Positions 26,476 through 33,144 of a DNA stretch of 64,000 bases are shown in pieces; within the stretch, counting starts at the first letter, position 1, and the number at the start of each line of letters is the position of its first letter. The DNA comes from a virus (lineage: Duplodnaviria; Caudoviricetes), in IMG/VR virus record IMGVR_UViG_3300033066_001295, positions 1 through 64,000 of that record; one strand, given 5' to 3'. The notes beneath the pieces were generated by a model. It worked only from the letters and a program-made list of their open reading frames with translations. It was not told the DNA's origin and ran no database searches. A program made the position numbers and the translations under genes.

Positions 26476-26906
26476 CGCCTGCTGACACCATTGTGTCCTT
26501 CACCGGGCCTAACTTCTTTTTGAGCAACTTTTTCCCCTACGGTGTTTGGTATGGTGGAATGCTGTACCCATCAACTGAAAATGCATATCAGGCAGCCAAG
26601 TCGGAAGACTTGAGCATGAGGGAGAAGTTCATCTCTATATCTGCTGGTCAGGCAAAGCGTCTCGGAAAGAGCATCAAGTACCGGTCAGACTGGGAGAATG
26701 TCAAAGAAGGCATAATGTTGGAACTTAACCGGAAAAAGTTCTCTGATGGCTACCTGAGAAACCAGCTTGTAGCCACGGGAGACAGGGAAATCATCGAAGG
26801 CAACAATCATTATGATAAAATTTGGGGGGCTGTTTGGAATGGTAAGGAATGGGTTGGGGAAAACAAACTTGGAAAGATACTTATGCAGATCAGGTCTGAA
26901 CAATAG
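26472..26906 (+). CDS. NADAR family protein
   Basis: FLSNF, YPSTENAYQAAK, AKRLG, DW...K, KF, L.ATG..IIE, D..WG, GENKLG..LM. Confidence 0.92.
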   Translation: MTPADTIVSFTGPNFFLSNFFPYGVWYGGMLYPSTENAYQAAKSEDLSMREKFISISAGQAKRLGKSIKYRSDWENVKEGIMLELNRKKFSDGYLRNQLVATGDREIIEGNNHYDKIWGAVWNGKEWVGENKLGKILMQIRSEQ

Positions 26907-27540
26907 GTCGTCTCCATCCTTTGTGATGATTCCGTTCCCCCCTTAACACCAAGCATATCTTTGGCGGTGATAAATCATTTTCACGGCAAAATTTTCTGAA
27001 GTTTGTCACTCGGATTACCTGTCCATTGGGGGATACTAGAGTGCCTGATTTAACCTTATAACGTGTAGGTACAGCAACCTGTCTCCCAGCATAACGCTCT
27101 TTTAGTTTAACCCTACCTGACTCTGACATTTTTTTGCCCAAGTGGGATTTTTTCAGTCTTTCAATGGTCTCTGGTGTTGCTTTCCTCCCCAGCATCCTAG
27201 CCCTGATTTTTGTTTTTGATTCCTCTGAGAGAACCATTCTGCCCTGACCGGCTCTAAGGTTATAACCATTTGGAGACATCGTGTTTAATCGGCCTACCCA
27301 TAAAATTTCAGCATTATCAAGCTCCTCTTGTGTGCAGCAATCTGGCAGAGTTTGAAGGACCCTTATCTTGAATTTTAGCTCCCCATATTTTGATATAGCA
27401 TGAACGATTGGCATCTTTTTTCGGTTCTTCCACCTAGCTTCCCCACAATGTCTCGCAAACCTTTCATGCTCTGTCAGTCTGGTTTGACCTATGTACTCCT
27501 TGCTGTTTAATTCGTTTGATATTGCATATATAAGTGGCAT
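26890..27540 (-). CDS. GIY-YIG homing endonuclease with NUMOD3-like repeats
   Basis: IYAI...YIGQT, RF..H, GYN, SEESK.KI repeats, HHKGW. Confidence 0.88.
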   Translation of the reverse strand: MPLIYAISNELNSKEYIGQTRLTEHERFARHCGEARWKNRKKMPIVHAISKYGELKFKIRVLQTLPDCCTQEELDNAEILWVGRLNTMSPNGYNLRAGQGRMVLSEESKTKIRARMLGRKATPETIERLKKSHLGKKMSESGRVKLKERYAGRQVAVPTRYKVKSGTLVSPNGQVIRVTNFRKFCRENDLSPPKICLVLRGERNHHKGWRRPIVQT

Positions 27541-27702
27541 GTTAGATATATACTTTCCATCTAATCTGCCCAATAGTTACCTCCACAAAATGATAGCTTC
27601 TTGGGTGAGAAAGGGTACGTAATTCAATGGCAGAATGGCACGATTTCAACCGTCGCCGTAGTGAGTTCGATTCTCACCGTACCTTCCAATGTAGATATAG
27701 GC

Positions 27703-29059: not shown

Positions 29060-29084
29060 AAATGCGTTCTGATATAAAAAGTTG

Positions 29085-29120: not shown

Positions 29121-29726
29121 ATGAAAAAACAAAAATCATCAGATACCGCTTCCACCATAACTATCCCAAAGCTTGACAAGCACATACTAAAGCTGACGAT
29201 AGTGGGAGAAAGTCCACTGATTCTCAACAAGTGGAGTGAAAAAAGTATAAAAGCCATTGAGGAAAAACAAGGTCGTACTGCTAAATCAATGGTCAAAGCC
29301 ATTCGAGTACCTGAAGAGGAAGTGCGTGAAGCCACTCACTTTATCCAAAGTGGACCACACAAAGGCAAACCGGGAATTCCTGCACTAGCATTCAAAAATG
29401 CAGCAGTTACAGCTTGCACAAGTTTAGGAAGAGACTTCCCAAAAACCAAAGCTCGTCAGGCTTTCCATGTCATAGGGGACATTCTCCCCATTAATGGTGA
29501 AATGTCTCCCAGAAAAGACACCATAACATACCCCAACGGTTCGGGTGGTCTAGCTTACAGACCATCTTGGAACAAGTGGAGTGTTGACCTCGACATCAGG
29601 TACAACTCAAATGTCATCAGCCCGGAACAGCTTGCCAGTCTTTTTAGTCTTGCTGGCTTTGCTGTTGGGGTGGGTTGTTGGCGTCCAGAAAAAAATGGAG
29701 ACAAGGGTCTTTTCAAGGTTGCATAA
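29121..29726 (+). CDS. stand-alone RAMP/Cas7-like protein (Vipr-like candidate RNA-guided effector)
   Basis: LKLTIVGESPLIL (RAMP first strand), PGIPALAFKNA (cf. Csm3/Cmr P.IPGSS.KG), C-terminal Gly loop GFAVGVGCWRPEKNGDKGLFKV; array starts at the base after the stop. Confidence 0.75.
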   Translation: MKKQKSSDTASTITIPKLDKHILKLTIVGESPLILNKWSEKSIKAIEEKQGRTAKSMVKAIRVPEEEVREATHFIQSGPHKGKPGIPALAFKNAAVTACTSLGRDFPKTKARQAFHVIGDILPINGEMSPRKDTITYPNGSGGLAYRPSWNKWSVDLDIRYNSNVISPEQLASLFSLAGFAVGVGCWRPEKNGDKGLFKVA

Positions 29727-30050
29727 CCTTGGTCATAGCTTGGTAAAGCAGCGTAATGTCTAGTGCAGAACAGCGTAGCGCAGCCAACCAACGTGAGGGG
29801 GAGAACGATACGCGCCCAACAATTTTCAAGGGTAAAACCTTGGTCAAAACAGAGCAATGCAAAGGTAGCAGAGTGAAGCTTAGCTGCGTGCAGTTGATCT
29901 CAGAAACGGGACGCCGATTGTTCGGCGTCCCAAATTTTTCAGTAACTTACAAGGGTAACACCTTGGTCAAAGAGCAGTGAAGCAAAACGCAGATTAGCTA
30001 TGTGCAGTTGATCAAAGGGAGACGCCGATTGTTCGGCGTCTCCCACAATT
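29727..30050 (+). ncRNA. three-unit guide-like RNA array: CCTTGGTCA-(AGY NN)n-hairpin
   Basis: CCTTGGTCA at 29727, 29838 and 29961; 5-nt periodic triplet/dinucleotide runs; perfect hairpins at 29908-29931 and 30017-30044. Confidence 0.8.
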
Positions 30051-30055
30051 TCCAA

Positions 30056-30574
30056 ATGAAAAAACCTAAAAAACCTAAAGTGTCTTTTGCCTCCATGCAT
30101 GGTAGGGGGTGTGTACTTACAGACGATCAAGCTCGTGAGATAGGTCCTGTGCTTGTGAGGATAGAGCAGAAAAATGGAGCTATCAAGCCTGCTACAGTAG
30201 TTCAAGAAGCATCATCACCATCTTCCCCGTTGCACAGCTATTTTACATGGGATGACACAGAAGCAGCTAAAAAGTGTAGGTTAGAGGAGGCTAGAAGTAT
30301 AATCAGGAGTGTCAGGATCATCCATGAAGACGCTCCTGATATTGTTGTCCATGCCTTTACAAGTGTAAAAGCTACCTCGAAAGAATCCAAGTTTTCGGGG
30401 TACGGGTACCTGAGTACACCTGCTGCTCTCAATAAAAAGGAGTACAAAGAGCAAGTTCTTAACACAGCCCTTTCAGAAATTGAAGTGTGGAAACGTCGTT
30501 ATAGCGGTTTAGTGGAGCTTGCATCAATTTGTGGTGCTATTGAGGCAACCATTAAAAAGCTCAAGAGAGTTTGA
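30056..30574 (+). CDS. phage protein directly downstream of the array (candidate accessory)
   Basis: G.I.P..VV..A..P.SPLH.YFTWDD..AA...R...AR.II; ATG 30056 follows the last hairpin. Confidence 0.75.
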   Translation: MKKPKKPKVSFASMHGRGCVLTDDQAREIGPVLVRIEQKNGAIKPATVVQEASSPSSPLHSYFTWDDTEAAKKCRLEEARSIIRSVRIIHEDAPDIVVHAFTSVKATSKESKFSGYGYLSTPAALNKKEYKEQVLNTALSEIEVWKRRYSGLVELASICGAIEATIKKLKRV

Positions 30575-30613: not shown

Positions 30614-31645
30614 CTAGGAAGTAATAGCAACCTCCATTTTGGCTAAAATAACTTCACCTATGCTTAACTCAAGAAAATCAGCGGCTGTAGCTTCTTTCCC
30701 AGAGCGAATATTATCGTGAACAATTGCTTCAGCAAGCCCATCACCAAGGGTGTAATAGATAGCTTCAATTACGTCCTTATTATTCTCGAACATACCAACC
30801 CCATTTTGGTACATTACAGGTTGTTGTTTAATCTCCGGGAATTGCCCACTCTCCCACATCTCTGTCAACTCCCTGACAGCCATCTCCCAATGCAGTCTTT
30901 CTTTATCTGAAATTTTCAGTGTCTTCATGTTAAATAATAGCATATTTCTCTGGTGAGTGCAAACCCCATTACCCATCCGGGCTGAATGATTGCAGTTATG
31001 GCAGAGGACCCGGTAGTCTGGAGGGAAACCAGCTTTGATGATGTGGGAGTAAAGGATATTGGTGACCTGATTCACTTTTCTCATTTTGCTGCCACCACCT
31101 GCCACATGATCTATTGCTAACTTAAAAGGATCATCTTCTCCACAGCAAGAGCACTTGTTGCCATAGTGTTGAAGAACGATGGATCGCTGTTTTCTGAAGG
31201 TGCGGGCTGCCCCGCTGAGGCCATCCTTTAACCTAGCCTCCAAGCTCTTCTTGACGTTGCAGCTAAAGCATAAACACTGTAACACAGGAGGAAAGTTATT
31301 TTTGATTGCCCACCTGTACATGTTATTTTTTACTTCAGCACGATGAGTCACACCATCGTCATTTACATGGTCCAGAGTAAGCATCTCCAGCATGGTTTCA
31401 GGACAATGCTGGCACTTTCCACCATATCCAGCCATCACCTTTGTCTTTAGCCTTTGCTGCTTGGCTCTTGCTAACTCAGCAACCCTACCAGAGTGTTCCT
31501 TGCAGTATTTCCTGTGGTAAGCTCTACGCTCCTCAATGGTCTGTTTTGGTCTTGATCCTTTTATGAGACCCTTTTCTCTTCTCCAATTTCGGAGATACTG
31601 AATGCGTTCTTCTCTTGATGCAAAAGGCATATAGTTCGATAGCAT
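30614..31645 (-). CDS. tandem-domain HNH-like endonuclease
   Basis: Two copies of YG.KC..C...L..DHV......LC..CN. Confidence 0.8.
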   Translation of the reverse strand: MLSNYMPFASREERIQYLRNWRREKGLIKGSRPKQTIEERRAYHRKYCKEHSGRVAELARAKQQRLKTKVMAGYGGKCQHCPETMLEMLTLDHVNDDGVTHRAEVKNNMYRWAIKNNFPPVLQCLCFSCNVKKSLEARLKDGLSGAARTFRKQRSIVLQHYGNKCSCCGEDDPFKLAIDHVAGGGSKMRKVNQVTNILYSHIIKAGFPPDYRVLCHNCNHSARMGNGVCTHQRNMLLFNMKTLKISDKERLHWEMAVRELTEMWESGQFPEIKQQPVMYQNGVGMFENNKDVIEAIYYTLGDGLAEAIVHDNIRSGKEATAADFLELSIGEVILAKMEVAITS

Positions 31646-31728: not shown

Positions 31729-33144
31729 TTAACCTCCAAAGGATGCATTGAACCCACTGCATTCGATGGTTGCATACATACGAGAATTGATTACTTTCTT
31801 TCCGTATATCGAGGCAAACCCTTTCCTTGCGATGAAGTCATCCAAGGTAACCAGCGGTGTGGTTAGGAGCAACAACCACGGAGCAAGCACATATCCTGTG
31901 CGGACGAAGTCCTTGCCCTTGTAACCGACCAACGCCTCGTTCATGCGATAGTGAGGATCGGTGTAGCACTTCACGCGGCCAAGCTTACCAAGCTCGGACA
32001 CACCTTCGATTTCAGCCTTCTCTCCGCCCGCAGCTTCAAACATTGGGAGGGTTTCAACGACACCGGAGGGCTGGATACCAAGAAGCATCCAGTTGGCCTT
32101 GACCCGGTTGGTTGCGCGCTGAATGAAGTTGCTGGCGTTAACGACAGCATCCACAAAACTGAGCTTGTGCTCGGTGTAGGAGATGTACGATCCGGTAGGA
32201 ATCGTTGCATCCCATGATACGACACCACCGGAGGCAATGCGGCGAACGTCTTCGATGACCTCACGGTCAACTTCCCACTGGAGGTGGTTGGCGATGGCGT
32301 TGCTGACAGTGCTTTCAGCGTTGACCTTGTGGAGGGCTTCAAGAGCCTTCGCAGCTTCCATCGACCAGCGACCGCGAAGCTTACGCTCCTTGGTGTAGAT
32401 CGGGGCTGACACGATTTCAAAGTCAACCTGCTGTGCATCGGGATTGAGTTCCGCGTTGTAGTAGTAGGTTGCTTCGAGGGTACCGTTGGCCACAGTGCTG
32501 CTGATGACGATGGCACCAGTGTTGTAGTTGATGGTACCGACATCGGTTCCAGCGGAGTTTTCAATGACACCGTTGCCGTTGTCAGTGAAGGTTGTCGTCG
32601 CGCTGTCCGTCAGGGTGATCGAACCGGGCATCACCGGGCTGTAGCTGAGCGTGCCGGTAAGGGCATTGGCAGCGACAGTACCGACGAACTCGTTTTCCAC
32701 GATAGCGTCGGAGTCGGTGTTGCGGTCAACGTGACCTGTGCGGCTGTCCCAGATTTTGGCTCCACGAGCGGTGTTGCCCTTCTGCTGGCCAGTGGTGAAG
32801 TTCATGTAGAAAATCAGACCACTTGGACCGTCGAGCGGTTGAACGCTGACGAGGTCCTGAGCGACGAGGTTTTCTGACACGATGGTCAAGATGGGGAAGG
32901 CGAACTTATCGAAGTTGCCGATCTGCATCGTTGACGTTGCTTCATCAAGACCATTGCGATAGTTCCGATAGTTTTCAAGGATGATGGCAGTGGTAGCCTG
33001 CTTGATCGGGCACTTGATGTCACTAACGATTTCTTTCCAGCCTTTTGCTTCGGTAAGGGGTTGCTTAGCGGTGATGCCAAGAGGCGTACGCGCCAACTCC
33101 ATACCTCGTGCAATGACCTTTGCGAGTTGATCCATGTTATGCAT
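31729..33144 (-). CDS. major capsid protein (T4 gp23-like)
   Basis: TAIILEN, DLVSVQPL.GPSGLIFY, RKLR..WS.EA, E.DRE.I, VGYKG, GYVLAP. Confidence 0.95.
   Translation of the reverse strand: MHNMDQLAKVIARGMELARTPLGITAKQPLTEAKGWKEIVSDIKCPIKQATTAIILENYRNYRNGLDEATSTMQIGNFDKFAFPILTIVSENLVAQDLVSVQPLDGPSGLIFYMNFTTGQQKGNTARGAKIWDSRTGHVDRNTDSDAIVENEFVGTVAANALTGTLSYSPVMPGSITLTDSATTTFTDNGNGVIENSAGTDVGTINYNTGAIVISSTVANGTLEATYYYNAELNPDAQQVDFEIVSAPIYTKERKLRGRWSMEAAKALEALHKVNAESTVSNAIANHLQWEVDREVIEDVRRIASGGVVSWDATIPTGSYISYTEHKLSFVDAVVNASNFIQRATNRVKANWMLLGIQPSGVVETLPMFEAAGGEKAEIEGVSELGKLGRVKCYTDPHYRMNEALVGYKGKDFVRTGYVLAPWLLLLTTPLVTLDDFIARKGFASIYGKKVINSRMYATIECSGFNASFGG

What the first reader, a model, noticed from the sequence alone, without database searches (positions are those of the whole stretch)
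29727..30050. Array grammar: CCTTGGTCA + (AGY-NN)n with 5-nt period + 3' hairpin; the dinucleotides may encode a gapped target
Seen, unit 1 from 29737: AGC tt GGT aa AGC ag CGT aa TGT ct AGT gc AGA ac AGC gt AGC gc AGC ca (central G in 10/10 triplets). Unit 2 from 29848: AAC ag AGC aa TGC aa AGG t AGC ag AGT ga AGC tt AGC tg CGT gc AGT tg ATC (one 1-nt slip). Unit 3 from 29971: AGA gc AGT ga AGC aa AAC gc AGA tt AGC ta TGT gc AGT tg ATC. In their shared 3' part, unit 3 has an exact 10-nt (two-register) insertion relative to unit 2. Units 2 and 3 end in perfect hairpins (GGGACGCCGA-TTGT-TCGGCGTCCC and GGGAGACGCCGA-TTGT-TCGGCGTCTCCC); unit 1 has a degenerate one. CAAGGGTAA precedes units 2 and 3. 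Inference: the NN strings (unit 1 TT,AA,AG,AA,CT,GC,AC,GT,GC,CA; unit 3 GC,GA,AA,GC,TT,TA,GC,TG) carry the information. If every third target base is skipped, recognition could ignore codon wobble.
Basis: partly seen in the sequence, partly recalled or inferred. Interest (0 to 1): 0.9.

Follow-up and report, generated by a model that had tools for sequence, protein, structure and literature searches.

The report
Phage VIPR guide-RNA array, AGY variant
The three repeat units are guide RNAs of a VIPR system, a phage RNA-guided DNA-silencing system first described in 2026, and this copy uses an A-G-pyrimidine repeat instead of the usual G-G-pyrimidine.

Summary
Positions 29727-30050 hold three tandem ~90-110-nt units. 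Each has the handle CCTTGGTCA, 9-12 pentanucleotide repeats and, in units 2 and 3, a perfect 3' hairpin. Over 32 repeats, position 1 is A in 25, position 2 is G in 27, position 3 is a pyrimidine in 28, and positions 4-5 are near-random.

The array lies between a 200-aa RAMP protein and a conserved 172-aa partner, in a 208-kb phage. The RAMP protein matches the solved SUSP1 Vipr protein (E 1e-7) and folds like Cas7/Csm3. The locus is therefore a VIPR system (Doudna laboratory preprints, 2026). In VIPR, Vipr protomers grip each conserved triplet and the NN dinucleotides pair with double-stranded DNA, skipping every third target base.

What is particular here is the AGY triplet instead of GGY. 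The two residues aligned with those that read the first G in SUSP1 are replaced (Asn and Cys), while the readers of G2 and Y3 are kept. About 200 relatives keep Glu or Asp and have GG repeats.

I found no target. Gapped matches in public collections equal a permuted control. Expression could not be tested. Verdict: a new member of a known kind.

The parts
29124..29726 (+). vipr gene: a 200-aa stand-alone RAMP (Cas7-like) protein. An upstream TTG at 29082 is an alternative start.
   Evidence: It matches phrog_4652 and has 565 homologues, none with a Pfam domain. A profile of 40 homologues hits PDB 36pp_D 'SUSP1 Vipr protein' at E 1e-7. The AF2 model has pLDDT 86, and its best Foldseek matches are Csm3/Cas7 backbone subunits (E 2e-6 to 1e-4, TM 0.42-0.57).
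29727..29826 (+). vrRNA 1: handle at 29727-29735, one spacer base, then about 12 xGY-NN repeats at 29737-29796. The first ten NN are TT AA AG AA CT GC AC GT GC CA. The 3' part at 29797-29826 is weakly structured.
   Evidence: The orthologue in L097 differs at 5 bases. Four are in triplet positions 1 or 3 and are transitions that keep the purine or pyrimidine class. One is in an NN.
29827..29835 (+). Conserved inter-unit motif CAAGGGTAA. Its CAAGG can pair with the CCTTG of the next handle. Its role is unknown (possibly a processing or start signal).
   Evidence: families D2, D3. A second copy lies at 29950-29958. No sigma-70-like promoter was found in front of any unit.
29838..29940 (+). vrRNA 2: handle at 29838-29846 and about 12 repeats at 29848-29906 with one 4-nt unit (a 1-nt slip). 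A perfect 10-bp hairpin lies at 29908-29931 and is followed by a T-run.
   Evidence: pair I4. One search lists it as a terminator-like site. The fold has z = -3.7.
29961..30052 (+). vrRNA 3: handle at 29961-29969 and 9-10 repeats at 29971-30015 (NN: GC GA AA GC TT TA GC TG ...). A perfect 12-bp hairpin lies at 30017-30044.
   Evidence: pair I2. The fold has z = -5.5, and the handle can pair with the last repeats.
30056..30574 (+). vap-like accessory gene (172 aa, phrog_15946), starting 11 nt after the last hairpin.
   Evidence: It lies next to vipr in about 40 related loci at 21-49% identity. The same pairing occurs in Mycobacterium and Gordonia phages and in a cyanophage. The AF2 model has pLDDT 94. 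Only weak winged-helix-like fold matches were found (Z up to 5.8 over residues ~7-126), which is inconclusive.

Best explanation
The locus 29124-30574 is a VIPR (Viral Interference Programmable Repeat) system of a 208-kb phage. It consists of vipr, three vrRNA genes and a vap-like gene.

**Mechanism inferred from the published family.** Each ~90-110-nt vrRNA is coated by one Vipr protomer per pentanucleotide repeat, forming a helical filament. The conserved triplet (here A-G-Y) is flipped out and held by the protein. The two variable bases of each repeat are presented for pairing. The filament then binds double-stranded DNA whose sequence reads NN-x-NN-x, with one base skipped per repeat, usually the codon wobble position. 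This silences transcription of a competing phage, satellite or prophage gene. The vap product assists.

**Shown here.** The array grammar; homology of the protein to the solved SUSP1 Vipr and its Cas7-like fold; conservation of the vipr + vap + periodic-tract module in about 90 related loci; exchange of the repeat tract between close relatives while handle and hairpin stay.

**Inferred.** Transcription, filament assembly, DNA targeting and the biological target.

**Particular to this copy.** The repeat is AGY, not GGY. The two residues aligned with those that read the first G in SUSP1 are replaced: His17 corresponds to Asn35 and Asp177 to Cys185. Two thumb residues also differ from the family consensus (Asp142 is Gly, Arg144 is Ala). 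The residues aligned with the readers of G2 and Y3 (Arg146, Trp186, Arg187) are kept. I read this as a matched change of protein and RNA specificity.
For: **Protein.**
- Profile hit to 'SUSP1 Vipr protein' at E 1e-7. The alignment places D177-W178-R179 on the family's E-W-R and R138 on the invariant Arg of Y-R-P.
- The AF2 model has pLDDT 86 and Csm3/Cas7 top matches.

**RNA.**
- Strict 5-nt period with a conserved triplet and near-random NN.
- 9-12 repeats and about 100 nt per unit, as published (9-16 repeats, about 100 nt).
- A conserved 3' hairpin.

**Context.**
- Homologous loci carry 70- to 500-nt tracts of GG every 5 nt on the vipr strand, beside vipr and vap.
- No Rfam family, tRNA or ribozyme is present.
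- The locus is viral.

**Programmability.** L097 (Vipr 90% identical) keeps unit 1 with 5 substitutions, 4 of them class-preserving changes in the triplets. Its second unit has the same handle and hairpin but a different middle.

**Co-variation.**
- Among about 90 fetched loci and 115 database homologues with a recognisable G-loop, the residue before W-R is Glu or Asp in all but two groups. These are the window clade (Cys) and L065 (Ala).
- Those two groups are the only ones whose repeats start with A instead of G: 25 of 32 repeats here and 19 of 26 in L065.

**Self-targeting.** There is no self-target in the phage's own genome, as published for other VIPRs.

**Published mechanism.** bioRxiv 10.64898/2026.04.26.720920, 10.64898/2026.04.26.720927 and 10.64898/2026.10.15.759431.
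Against: - No target was found. The ten-NN pattern of unit 1 has 0 exact matches in viral contigs, 4 in metagenomes and 1 in genomes. These hits are unrelated to one another and at the expected chance number.
- The eight-NN pattern of unit 3 has 15 matches in viral contigs. Its order-reversed control has 14 and also yields in-frame homologous pairs.
- In SUSP1, GGY>AGY was among the GGY substitutions tested, and the text says that perturbing GGY motifs abolished silencing. An AGY array would therefore be dead with a SUSP1-type protein.
- Unit 2 has a 1-nt slip. Unit 1 lacks the hairpin.
- The N-terminal alignment that equates SUSP1 His17 with Asn35 is weak on its own. Two GG-type relatives (L012, L016) also have Asn there.
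- The VIPR type (I-VII) could not be assigned from the text available.
Confidence: 0.92

Rival explanations
1. The array is a decaying or inactive VIPR remnant. The AGY triplets and register slips would be degeneration of a former GGY array, and the RNAs would no longer guide anything.
For: Perturbing GGY motifs abolished silencing in SUSP1, and GGY>AGY was among the substitutions tested. Unit 2 has a 4-nt unit and unit 1 has no stable tail hairpin. No target was found.
Against: - Position 1 is A in 25 of 32 repeats, which is a specific preference and not random decay.
- The vipr and vap reading frames are intact. Vipr is 90% identical in L097 and 94% identical in the protein P0002 encoded by L007, from other samples.
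- Differences between orthologous unit-1 copies keep the purine or pyrimidine class of the triplet positions.
- The VIPR paper itself reports frequent internal degeneracy of functional vrRNAs and alternative YNNNG repeats.
Confidence: 0.05
2. The periodic RNA is a protein-binding sponge or attenuator in the manner of TRAP-binding sites. In those, (G/U)AG triplets spaced by 2-3 nt wrap around a ring protein. On this reading the RNA would regulate the flanking genes and would not guide DNA recognition.
For: The 5-nt spacing of xAG-like triplets resembles TRAP sites (my own knowledge, not tested). The array lies directly upstream of the vap-like gene with no separate promoter detected.
Against: - The neighbouring protein is a RAMP homologous to the solved Vipr, not a TRAP-like ring.
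- The middle of the units is exchanged between close relatives while handle and tail stay. This fits a guide, not a fixed binding site.
- The family's DNA-targeting activity is shown experimentally.
Confidence: 0.02
3. It is a DNA-level element, such as a replication origin, a packaging site or a cluster of primase sites (AGC = GCT on the other strand), and is not an RNA gene.
For: It is an intergenic location with repeats and inverted repeats.
Against: - The periodic tracts of relatives lie on the same strand as vipr in nearly all loci.
- The hairpin followed by a T-run is terminator-like on the + strand.
- In the characterised systems the homologous tracts are transcribed and co-purify with Vipr.
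- A 5-bp period does not match the DNA helical repeat.
Confidence: 0.01

Closest known systems
Type II VIPR system of Escherichia phage SUSP1 (Vipr + Vap1 + vrRNAs; PDB 36pp)
   Same: - A small stand-alone RAMP protein with a G-loop motif G-V-G-x-W-R-P and a thumb Arg.
- An accessory gene next to it.
- An array of about 100-nt RNAs made of pentanucleotide repeats with a conserved triplet and variable NN, plus a conserved 3' structure.
- A phage-borne locus with no self-target.
   Different: - The triplet is A-G-Y rather than G-G-Y.
- The G1-contact residues His17 and Asp177 correspond to Asn and Cys here.
- The tail is a simple hairpin; no pseudoknot was detected.
- Each unit begins with a conserved 9-nt handle that the papers do not describe.
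- The array lies between vipr and vap.
- The protein is too distant for tblastn to link it to SUSP1.
- The host and the target are unknown.
GG-type relatives of the same Vipr clade (loci L008, L012, L013, L016-L096; Mycobacterium and Gordonia phages)
   Same: Vipr is 35-50% identical and vap is homologous. A period-5 tract lies on the same strand beside the genes.
   Different: - Those tracts are mostly continuous GG-NNN runs of 200-500 nt, without the handle and hairpin punctuation seen here.
- They keep Glu before W-R and the D-x-R thumb motif.
Class 1 CRISPR backbone (Cas7/Csm3 filament on crRNA)
   Same: The RAMP fold is shared, with Foldseek E as low as 2e-6. One protomer binds per RNA segment, and a thumb breaks the guide-target duplex periodically.
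   Different: - There is no repeat-spacer array and there are no other cas genes.
- The period is 5 nt with three bases withheld, against 6 nt with one base withheld.
- The target is read 2 of every 3 bases.
TRAP-binding sites in the Bacillus trp leader ((G/U)AG repeats with 2-3 nt spacers)
   Same: An RNA with a short conserved triplet every about 5 nt that is bound by a protein oligomer (from my own knowledge).
   Different: The protein fold is unrelated, there is no guide function, and the spacers carry no information.

Membership tests
VIPR system | Vipr protein: a stand-alone RAMP with RRM core, glycine-rich loop and thumb, homologous to characterised Vipr | tested here: met
   The profile of 40 homologues hits PDB 36pp_D (SUSP1 Vipr) at E 1e-7 over the thumb and G-loop. 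The AF2 model (pLDDT 86) has a long beta-hairpin and matches Csm3/Cas7.
VIPR system | Minimal locus: vipr plus one accessory gene (vap), with no CRISPR array and no other cas genes | tested here: met
   The flanking ORFs have no Pfam hits. The 172-aa partner is conserved next to vipr in about 40 loci and in isolated phages. Whether it equals one of the published vap1-6 genes could not be checked.
VIPR system | vrRNA: 9-16 tandem pentanucleotide repeats with a conserved GGY (or related: NNNGG, YNNNG, NNNNG) and hypervariable NN | tested here: met
   There are 9-12 repeats per unit. The logo is A 25/32, G 27/32, Y 28/32 and NN at 0.19 and 0.10 bits. This fits the published 'YNNNG' class and not the canonical GGY.
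VIPR system | A conserved structured 3' tail after the repeat tract | tested here: met
   Units 2 and 3 and the second unit of L097 share a 10-12-bp hairpin. Unit 1 has a different, weakly structured tail that is conserved in L097. No pseudoknot was looked for beyond MFE folding.
VIPR system | Residues that hold the triplet: G2 by thumb Arg and G-loop Trp, Y3 by G-loop Arg, G1 by a beta-sheet His and a G-loop Asp | tested here: inconclusive
   The G2 and Y3 readers are conserved (Arg146, Trp186, Arg187). The G1 readers are replaced (Asn35, Cys185), in step with A at RNA position 1. This rests on the alignment only, and the N-terminal part of that alignment is weak.
VIPR system | vrRNAs are transcribed as about 100-nt RNAs and co-purify with Vipr | not testable with these tools
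VIPR system | Natural targets that match the NN string under the 1-nt skip rule (at least 80% NN match), typically in competing mobile elements | tested here: inconclusive
   Exact gapped matches are at chance level and equal to a permuted control. No matches were found in the phage's own genome or in 90 VIPR loci. Mismatch-tolerant searches of whole collections were not possible.
CRISPR-Cas class 1 | A repeat-spacer array with identical direct repeats, and a multi-subunit cas operon | tested here: not met
   There are only three units with a 9-nt handle and no 25-40-nt identical repeats. No other cas genes were found.
TRAP-type RNA-binding attenuation | A TRAP-fold ring protein that binds (G/U)AG repeats in a leader | tested here: not met
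   The adjacent protein is a RAMP. Pfam finds no family, TRAP included, in any of the six neighbouring ORFs tested.

The most novel reading that the evidence does not exclude
This phage carries a natural, orthogonal specificity class of Vipr that reads A-G-Y instead of G-G-Y. The proposed cause is that the contacts to the first base have been rebuilt: His to Asn35, Asp/Glu to Cys185, and thumb Asp/Arg to Gly142/Ala144. If so, the 'handle' half of the VIPR code is itself evolvable. Phages could then keep their vrRNAs from being loaded or hijacked by a rival's Vipr, and rival solo vrRNAs from loading onto theirs. Two non-cross-reacting Vipr-vrRNA pairs would also exist for use in one cell.
Probability: 0.5. 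Interest if true: 0.55.

Novelty: new member of a known kind. Interest (0 to 1): 0.42.

Why it matters
VIPR systems were described only in 2026, as a minimal RNA-guided DNA-recognition system that reads a gapped code and may predate CRISPR. This locus adds a member from an uncultured 208-kb phage.

It also gives a natural example in which the conserved triplet of the guide and the protein residues aligned with its readers have changed together. That offers a concrete test of how Vipr recognises its own RNA. It may also explain how competing phages avoid sharing guides, and it could supply an orthogonal protein-RNA pair for engineering.

For the scan, it shows that a reader working from raw sequence alone recovered the published decoding rule.

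Tried and rejected
1. **Known RNA families.** Rfam found nothing at gathering thresholds over the window, and only two sub-threshold chance hits in 29600-30150. No hammerhead or other ribozyme lies between units. There are no tRNA genes.
2. **Close DNA relatives among isolated phages.** None were found.
   - Unit 1 (20 specified bases, one R): 0 hits in viral contigs, 4 in metagenomes, 1 in genomes. The hits are unrelated genes, and the next two NN do not match.
   - Unit 3 (16 specified bases): 15 viral hits.
4. **A candidate target for unit 3, now rejected as evidence.** Two homologous 155-aa proteins of unknown family (L099:8723-9196:-, L111:2936-3400:-) are hit in frame at a conserved A-[ED]-K-A-F-Y-A-W motif, 18 of 20 with the extension. 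The order-reversed control pattern gave 14 hits and also produced in-frame homologous families. The phage itself has no homologue of these proteins.
5. **Self-targeting and targeting of rival VIPR loci.** The best scores equal those of shuffled guides.
6. **Other copies of the tail hairpin in viral contigs.** None were found. The other CCTTGGTCA sites in the genome are not followed by periodic tracts.
8. **Fold of the vap-like protein.** Foldseek found nothing significant. VIA-align gave only Z up to 5.8 winged-helix-like matches, which is below the level that can be trusted.
9. **Tree.** WIN+L097 join L065 with weak support (71) and long branches. One origin or two for the A-type repeat cannot be decided.
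10. **VIPR type (I-VII).** It cannot be assigned. The logos and tables are in figures and data files that are not held as text.

Full report
**1. What is in the sequence**

The region 29727-30050 is the gap between two + strand genes in the first 64 kb of a 207,816-base virus record. CheckV estimates the record as 94% complete. It holds three tandem units.

- Each unit opens with the exact nonamer CCTTGGTCA. This nonamer occurs nowhere else in the window.
- After one further base, each unit runs into 9-12 pentanucleotide repeats.
- Lag-5 autocorrelation is 0.40-0.47, against about 0.2 at other lags.
- In a scan of the whole genome for 'AG' every five bases, the only two windows scoring 7 of 10 lie inside this array, and all three units are among the few loci scoring 6.
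- Over 32 hand-registered repeats, position 1 is A in 25, position 2 is G in 27 and position 3 is a pyrimidine in 28. Positions 4 and 5 carry 0.19 and 0.10 bits.
- Units 2 and 3 end in perfect 10- and 12-bp hairpins. The first is followed by a T-run and listed as terminator-like. They fold far better than shuffles (z = -3.7 and -5.5). Unit 1 does not (z = 0.45).

Only the 'exact 10-nt insertion' of unit 3 is alignment-dependent.

**2. The surroundings**

The upstream gene (29124-29726) encodes a 200-aa protein with no Pfam family. It matches phrog_4652 and has 565 database homologues, all unnamed. The downstream gene (30056-30574, phrog_15946) starts 11 nt after the last hairpin.

I fetched loci that encode homologues 35-50% identical. 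Each has a striking non-coding tract next to the gene, on the same strand, in which GG recurs every five bases. These tracts run from about 70 nt to about 500 nt. The tract may lie upstream of the gene, between the two genes or after both. The second gene is also conserved beside the first in about 40 loci. The pair occurs in isolated Mycobacterium and Gordonia phages and in a cyanophage. The unit of conservation is therefore protein A + protein B + a period-5 RNA-like tract.

**3. Identification**

A profile of 40 homologues hits one PDB entry, 36pp, 'SUSP1 Vipr protein', at E 1e-7. An AlphaFold2 model (pLDDT 86) has an RRM-like core, a long beta-hairpin and a glycine-rich C-terminal loop. 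Its best Foldseek matches are Csm3/Cas7 backbone subunits of type III and type VII CRISPR complexes.

[quoted passage not shown] They report the following.

- Vipr is a stand-alone RAMP encoded mostly in phages, beside an accessory gene (vap).
- The flanking intergenic DNA encodes about 100-nt vrRNAs made of 9-16 YNNGG repeats (GGY alternating with hypervariable NN) and a conserved 3' tail.
- One Vipr protomer binds each repeat in a right-handed filament. It flips out and holds G1, G2 and Y3, and presents N4 and N5.
[quoted passage not shown] - Binding silences transcription of competing satellites, prophages or phages.
- Alternative repeat classes NNNGG, YNNNG and NNNNG exist.
- Internal degeneracy of vrRNAs is common.
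- No self-targeting is seen.

The window locus meets every sequence-level criterion. Another first-stage note on the same stretch had already called it VIPR-like.

**4. Evidence for programmability within this clade**

A contig from another sample (L097) encodes a Vipr 90% identical to the window's and carries two units.

- The first is the orthologue of unit 1 and differs at five bases. Four are in triplet positions 1 or 3 and are transitions (A to G, C to T or T to C), so the purine or pyrimidine class is kept. One is in an NN.
- The second has the same handle (one base different) and the same hairpin, but an unrelated repeat tract.

Handle and tail are thus constant while the middle is exchangeable. 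This is what a guide would show.

**5. What is particular here**

In SUSP1, G1 is read by His17 and Asp177. G2 is read by Arg138 and Trp178. Y3 is held by Arg179 and neighbouring residues.

The HMMER alignment places Asp177-Trp178-Arg179 on the family's Glu-Trp-Arg and Arg138 on the invariant Arg of Tyr-Arg-Pro. More weakly, it places His17 on a His that 104 of 115 homologues share.

| SUSP1 residue | Reads | Window residue |
|---|---|---|
| His17 | G1 | Asn35 |
| Asp177 | G1 | Cys185 |
| Arg138 | G2 | Arg146 |
| Trp178 | G2 | Trp186 |
| Arg179 | Y3 | Arg187 |

In addition, the near-invariant thumb residues Asp142 and Arg144 of this clade are Gly and Ala in the window protein.

Among about 90 fetched loci and 115 database homologues with a recognisable G-loop, every protein has Glu or Asp before Trp-Arg, with two exceptions: the window clade (Cys) and L065 (Ala). 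These are also the only loci whose repeats begin with A rather than G. In L065 the counts are A 19/26, G 13/26 or C 9/26, and Y 24/26.

A quick tree joins the two lineages only weakly and on long branches, so one origin or two cannot be decided. In SUSP1, GGY>AGY was among the triplet substitutions tested, and the text states that perturbing the GGY motifs abolished silencing. I therefore read the window system as a matched change of RNA triplet and protein pocket. This rests on alignment and correlation only.

Other differences from the characterised type II systems are:
- the 9-nt 5' handle;
- the simple hairpin tail;
- the conserved CAAGGGTAA before units 2 and 3, whose CAAGG can pair with the next handle;
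- the position of the array between vipr and vap.

No sigma-70-like promoter precedes the units and no ribozyme lies between them. How the units are made is open.

**6. Target search**

- *Unit 1.* The ten-NN pattern, with one position relaxed to cover the L097 variant, has no exact match in IMG/VR contigs, four in metagenome contigs and one in the species genomes. The five hits are unrelated, do not extend to the next two NN, and number about what chance predicts for about 20 specified bases.
- *Unit 3.* The eight-NN pattern has 15 matches in viral contigs. Two of them fall in frame in homologous 155-aa proteins of unknown family, at an A-[ED]-K-A-F-Y-A-W motif.
- *Control.* The same NN in reverse order gives 14 matches and likewise produces in-frame homologous families. 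The candidate is therefore no better than chance.
- *Other searches.* No guide matches the phage's own genome or the about 90 VIPR loci in hand better than shuffled guides do.

The target remains unknown. The host is also unknown. The major capsid protein is at most 35% identical to those of Bacillus and Listeria phages and of more distant T4-like phages. Only exact matching was possible on the large collections, whereas the published criterion is at least 80% NN match.

**7. The accessory protein**

The 172-aa product models with pLDDT 94. Foldseek finds nothing significant. VIA-align gives only Z up to 5.8 over residues about 7-126, to winged-helix proteins such as MecI, MexR, forkhead and Z-alpha domains. 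This agrees loosely with the published statement that several vap genes encode winged-helix-like DNA binders, but it is below a trustworthy level.

**8. Verdict**

The finding is a genuine VIPR locus.
- *Observation:* confirmed.
- *Interpretation:* supported, through family membership and published experiments rather than through a target found here.
- *Novelty:* a new member of a known, very recently described kind. It carries a natural A-G-Y repeat variant and matching changes at the residues aligned with the first-base readers.
- *Not shown:* expression, assembly and target.

Noticed in passing
window 30263-30320: Inside the vap-like gene, over its most conserved codons, there is a run of xAG every 5 nt (6 of 10 in register). 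It is one of only a few such windows in the 208-kb genome. It is probably chance, but it lies 200 nt from the array.
   Followed up: no
L008 3651-3990; L013 4141-4550; L016 2420-2950; L012 3640-3980 and 4551-4650: GG-type relatives carry continuous 100- to 500-nt tracts of GG-NNN without the handle and hairpin punctuation seen in the window. These may be the 'staggered' or multi-guide arrays mentioned in the VIPR paper. Gene callers place spurious ORFs over them, for example the 167-aa minus-strand ORF in L008.
   Followed up: partly
L065 3113-3270: A distant Vipr (Ala instead of the acidic G-loop residue, Asn at the His position) has repeats of the form A-[G/C]-C-NN, so even the second base is relaxed there. 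This may be a further repeat class.
   Followed up: partly
window 26890-27573 (-) and 30614-31645 (-): Homing-endonuclease-like genes flank the VIPR locus. One is a GIY-YIG-like ORF (judged by eye from its sequence). The other is an HNH endonuclease (PHROG hits). The locus lies just upstream of the major capsid gene (31729-33144, -).
   Followed up: no
L016 5781-5954; L013 5547-6392: Related VIPR-bearing phage contigs also carry a CsrA-family gene and an AcrVA2-like gene within 3 kb of vipr (precomputed Pfam labels).
   Followed up: no
L099:8723-9196:- and L111:2936-3400:-: This is a small phage protein family (about 155 aa, 42% identical, no Pfam or PHROG match) with a conserved A-[ED]-K-A-F-Y-A-W-F motif. 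It surfaced only as a chance-level match to guide 3.
   Followed up: partly
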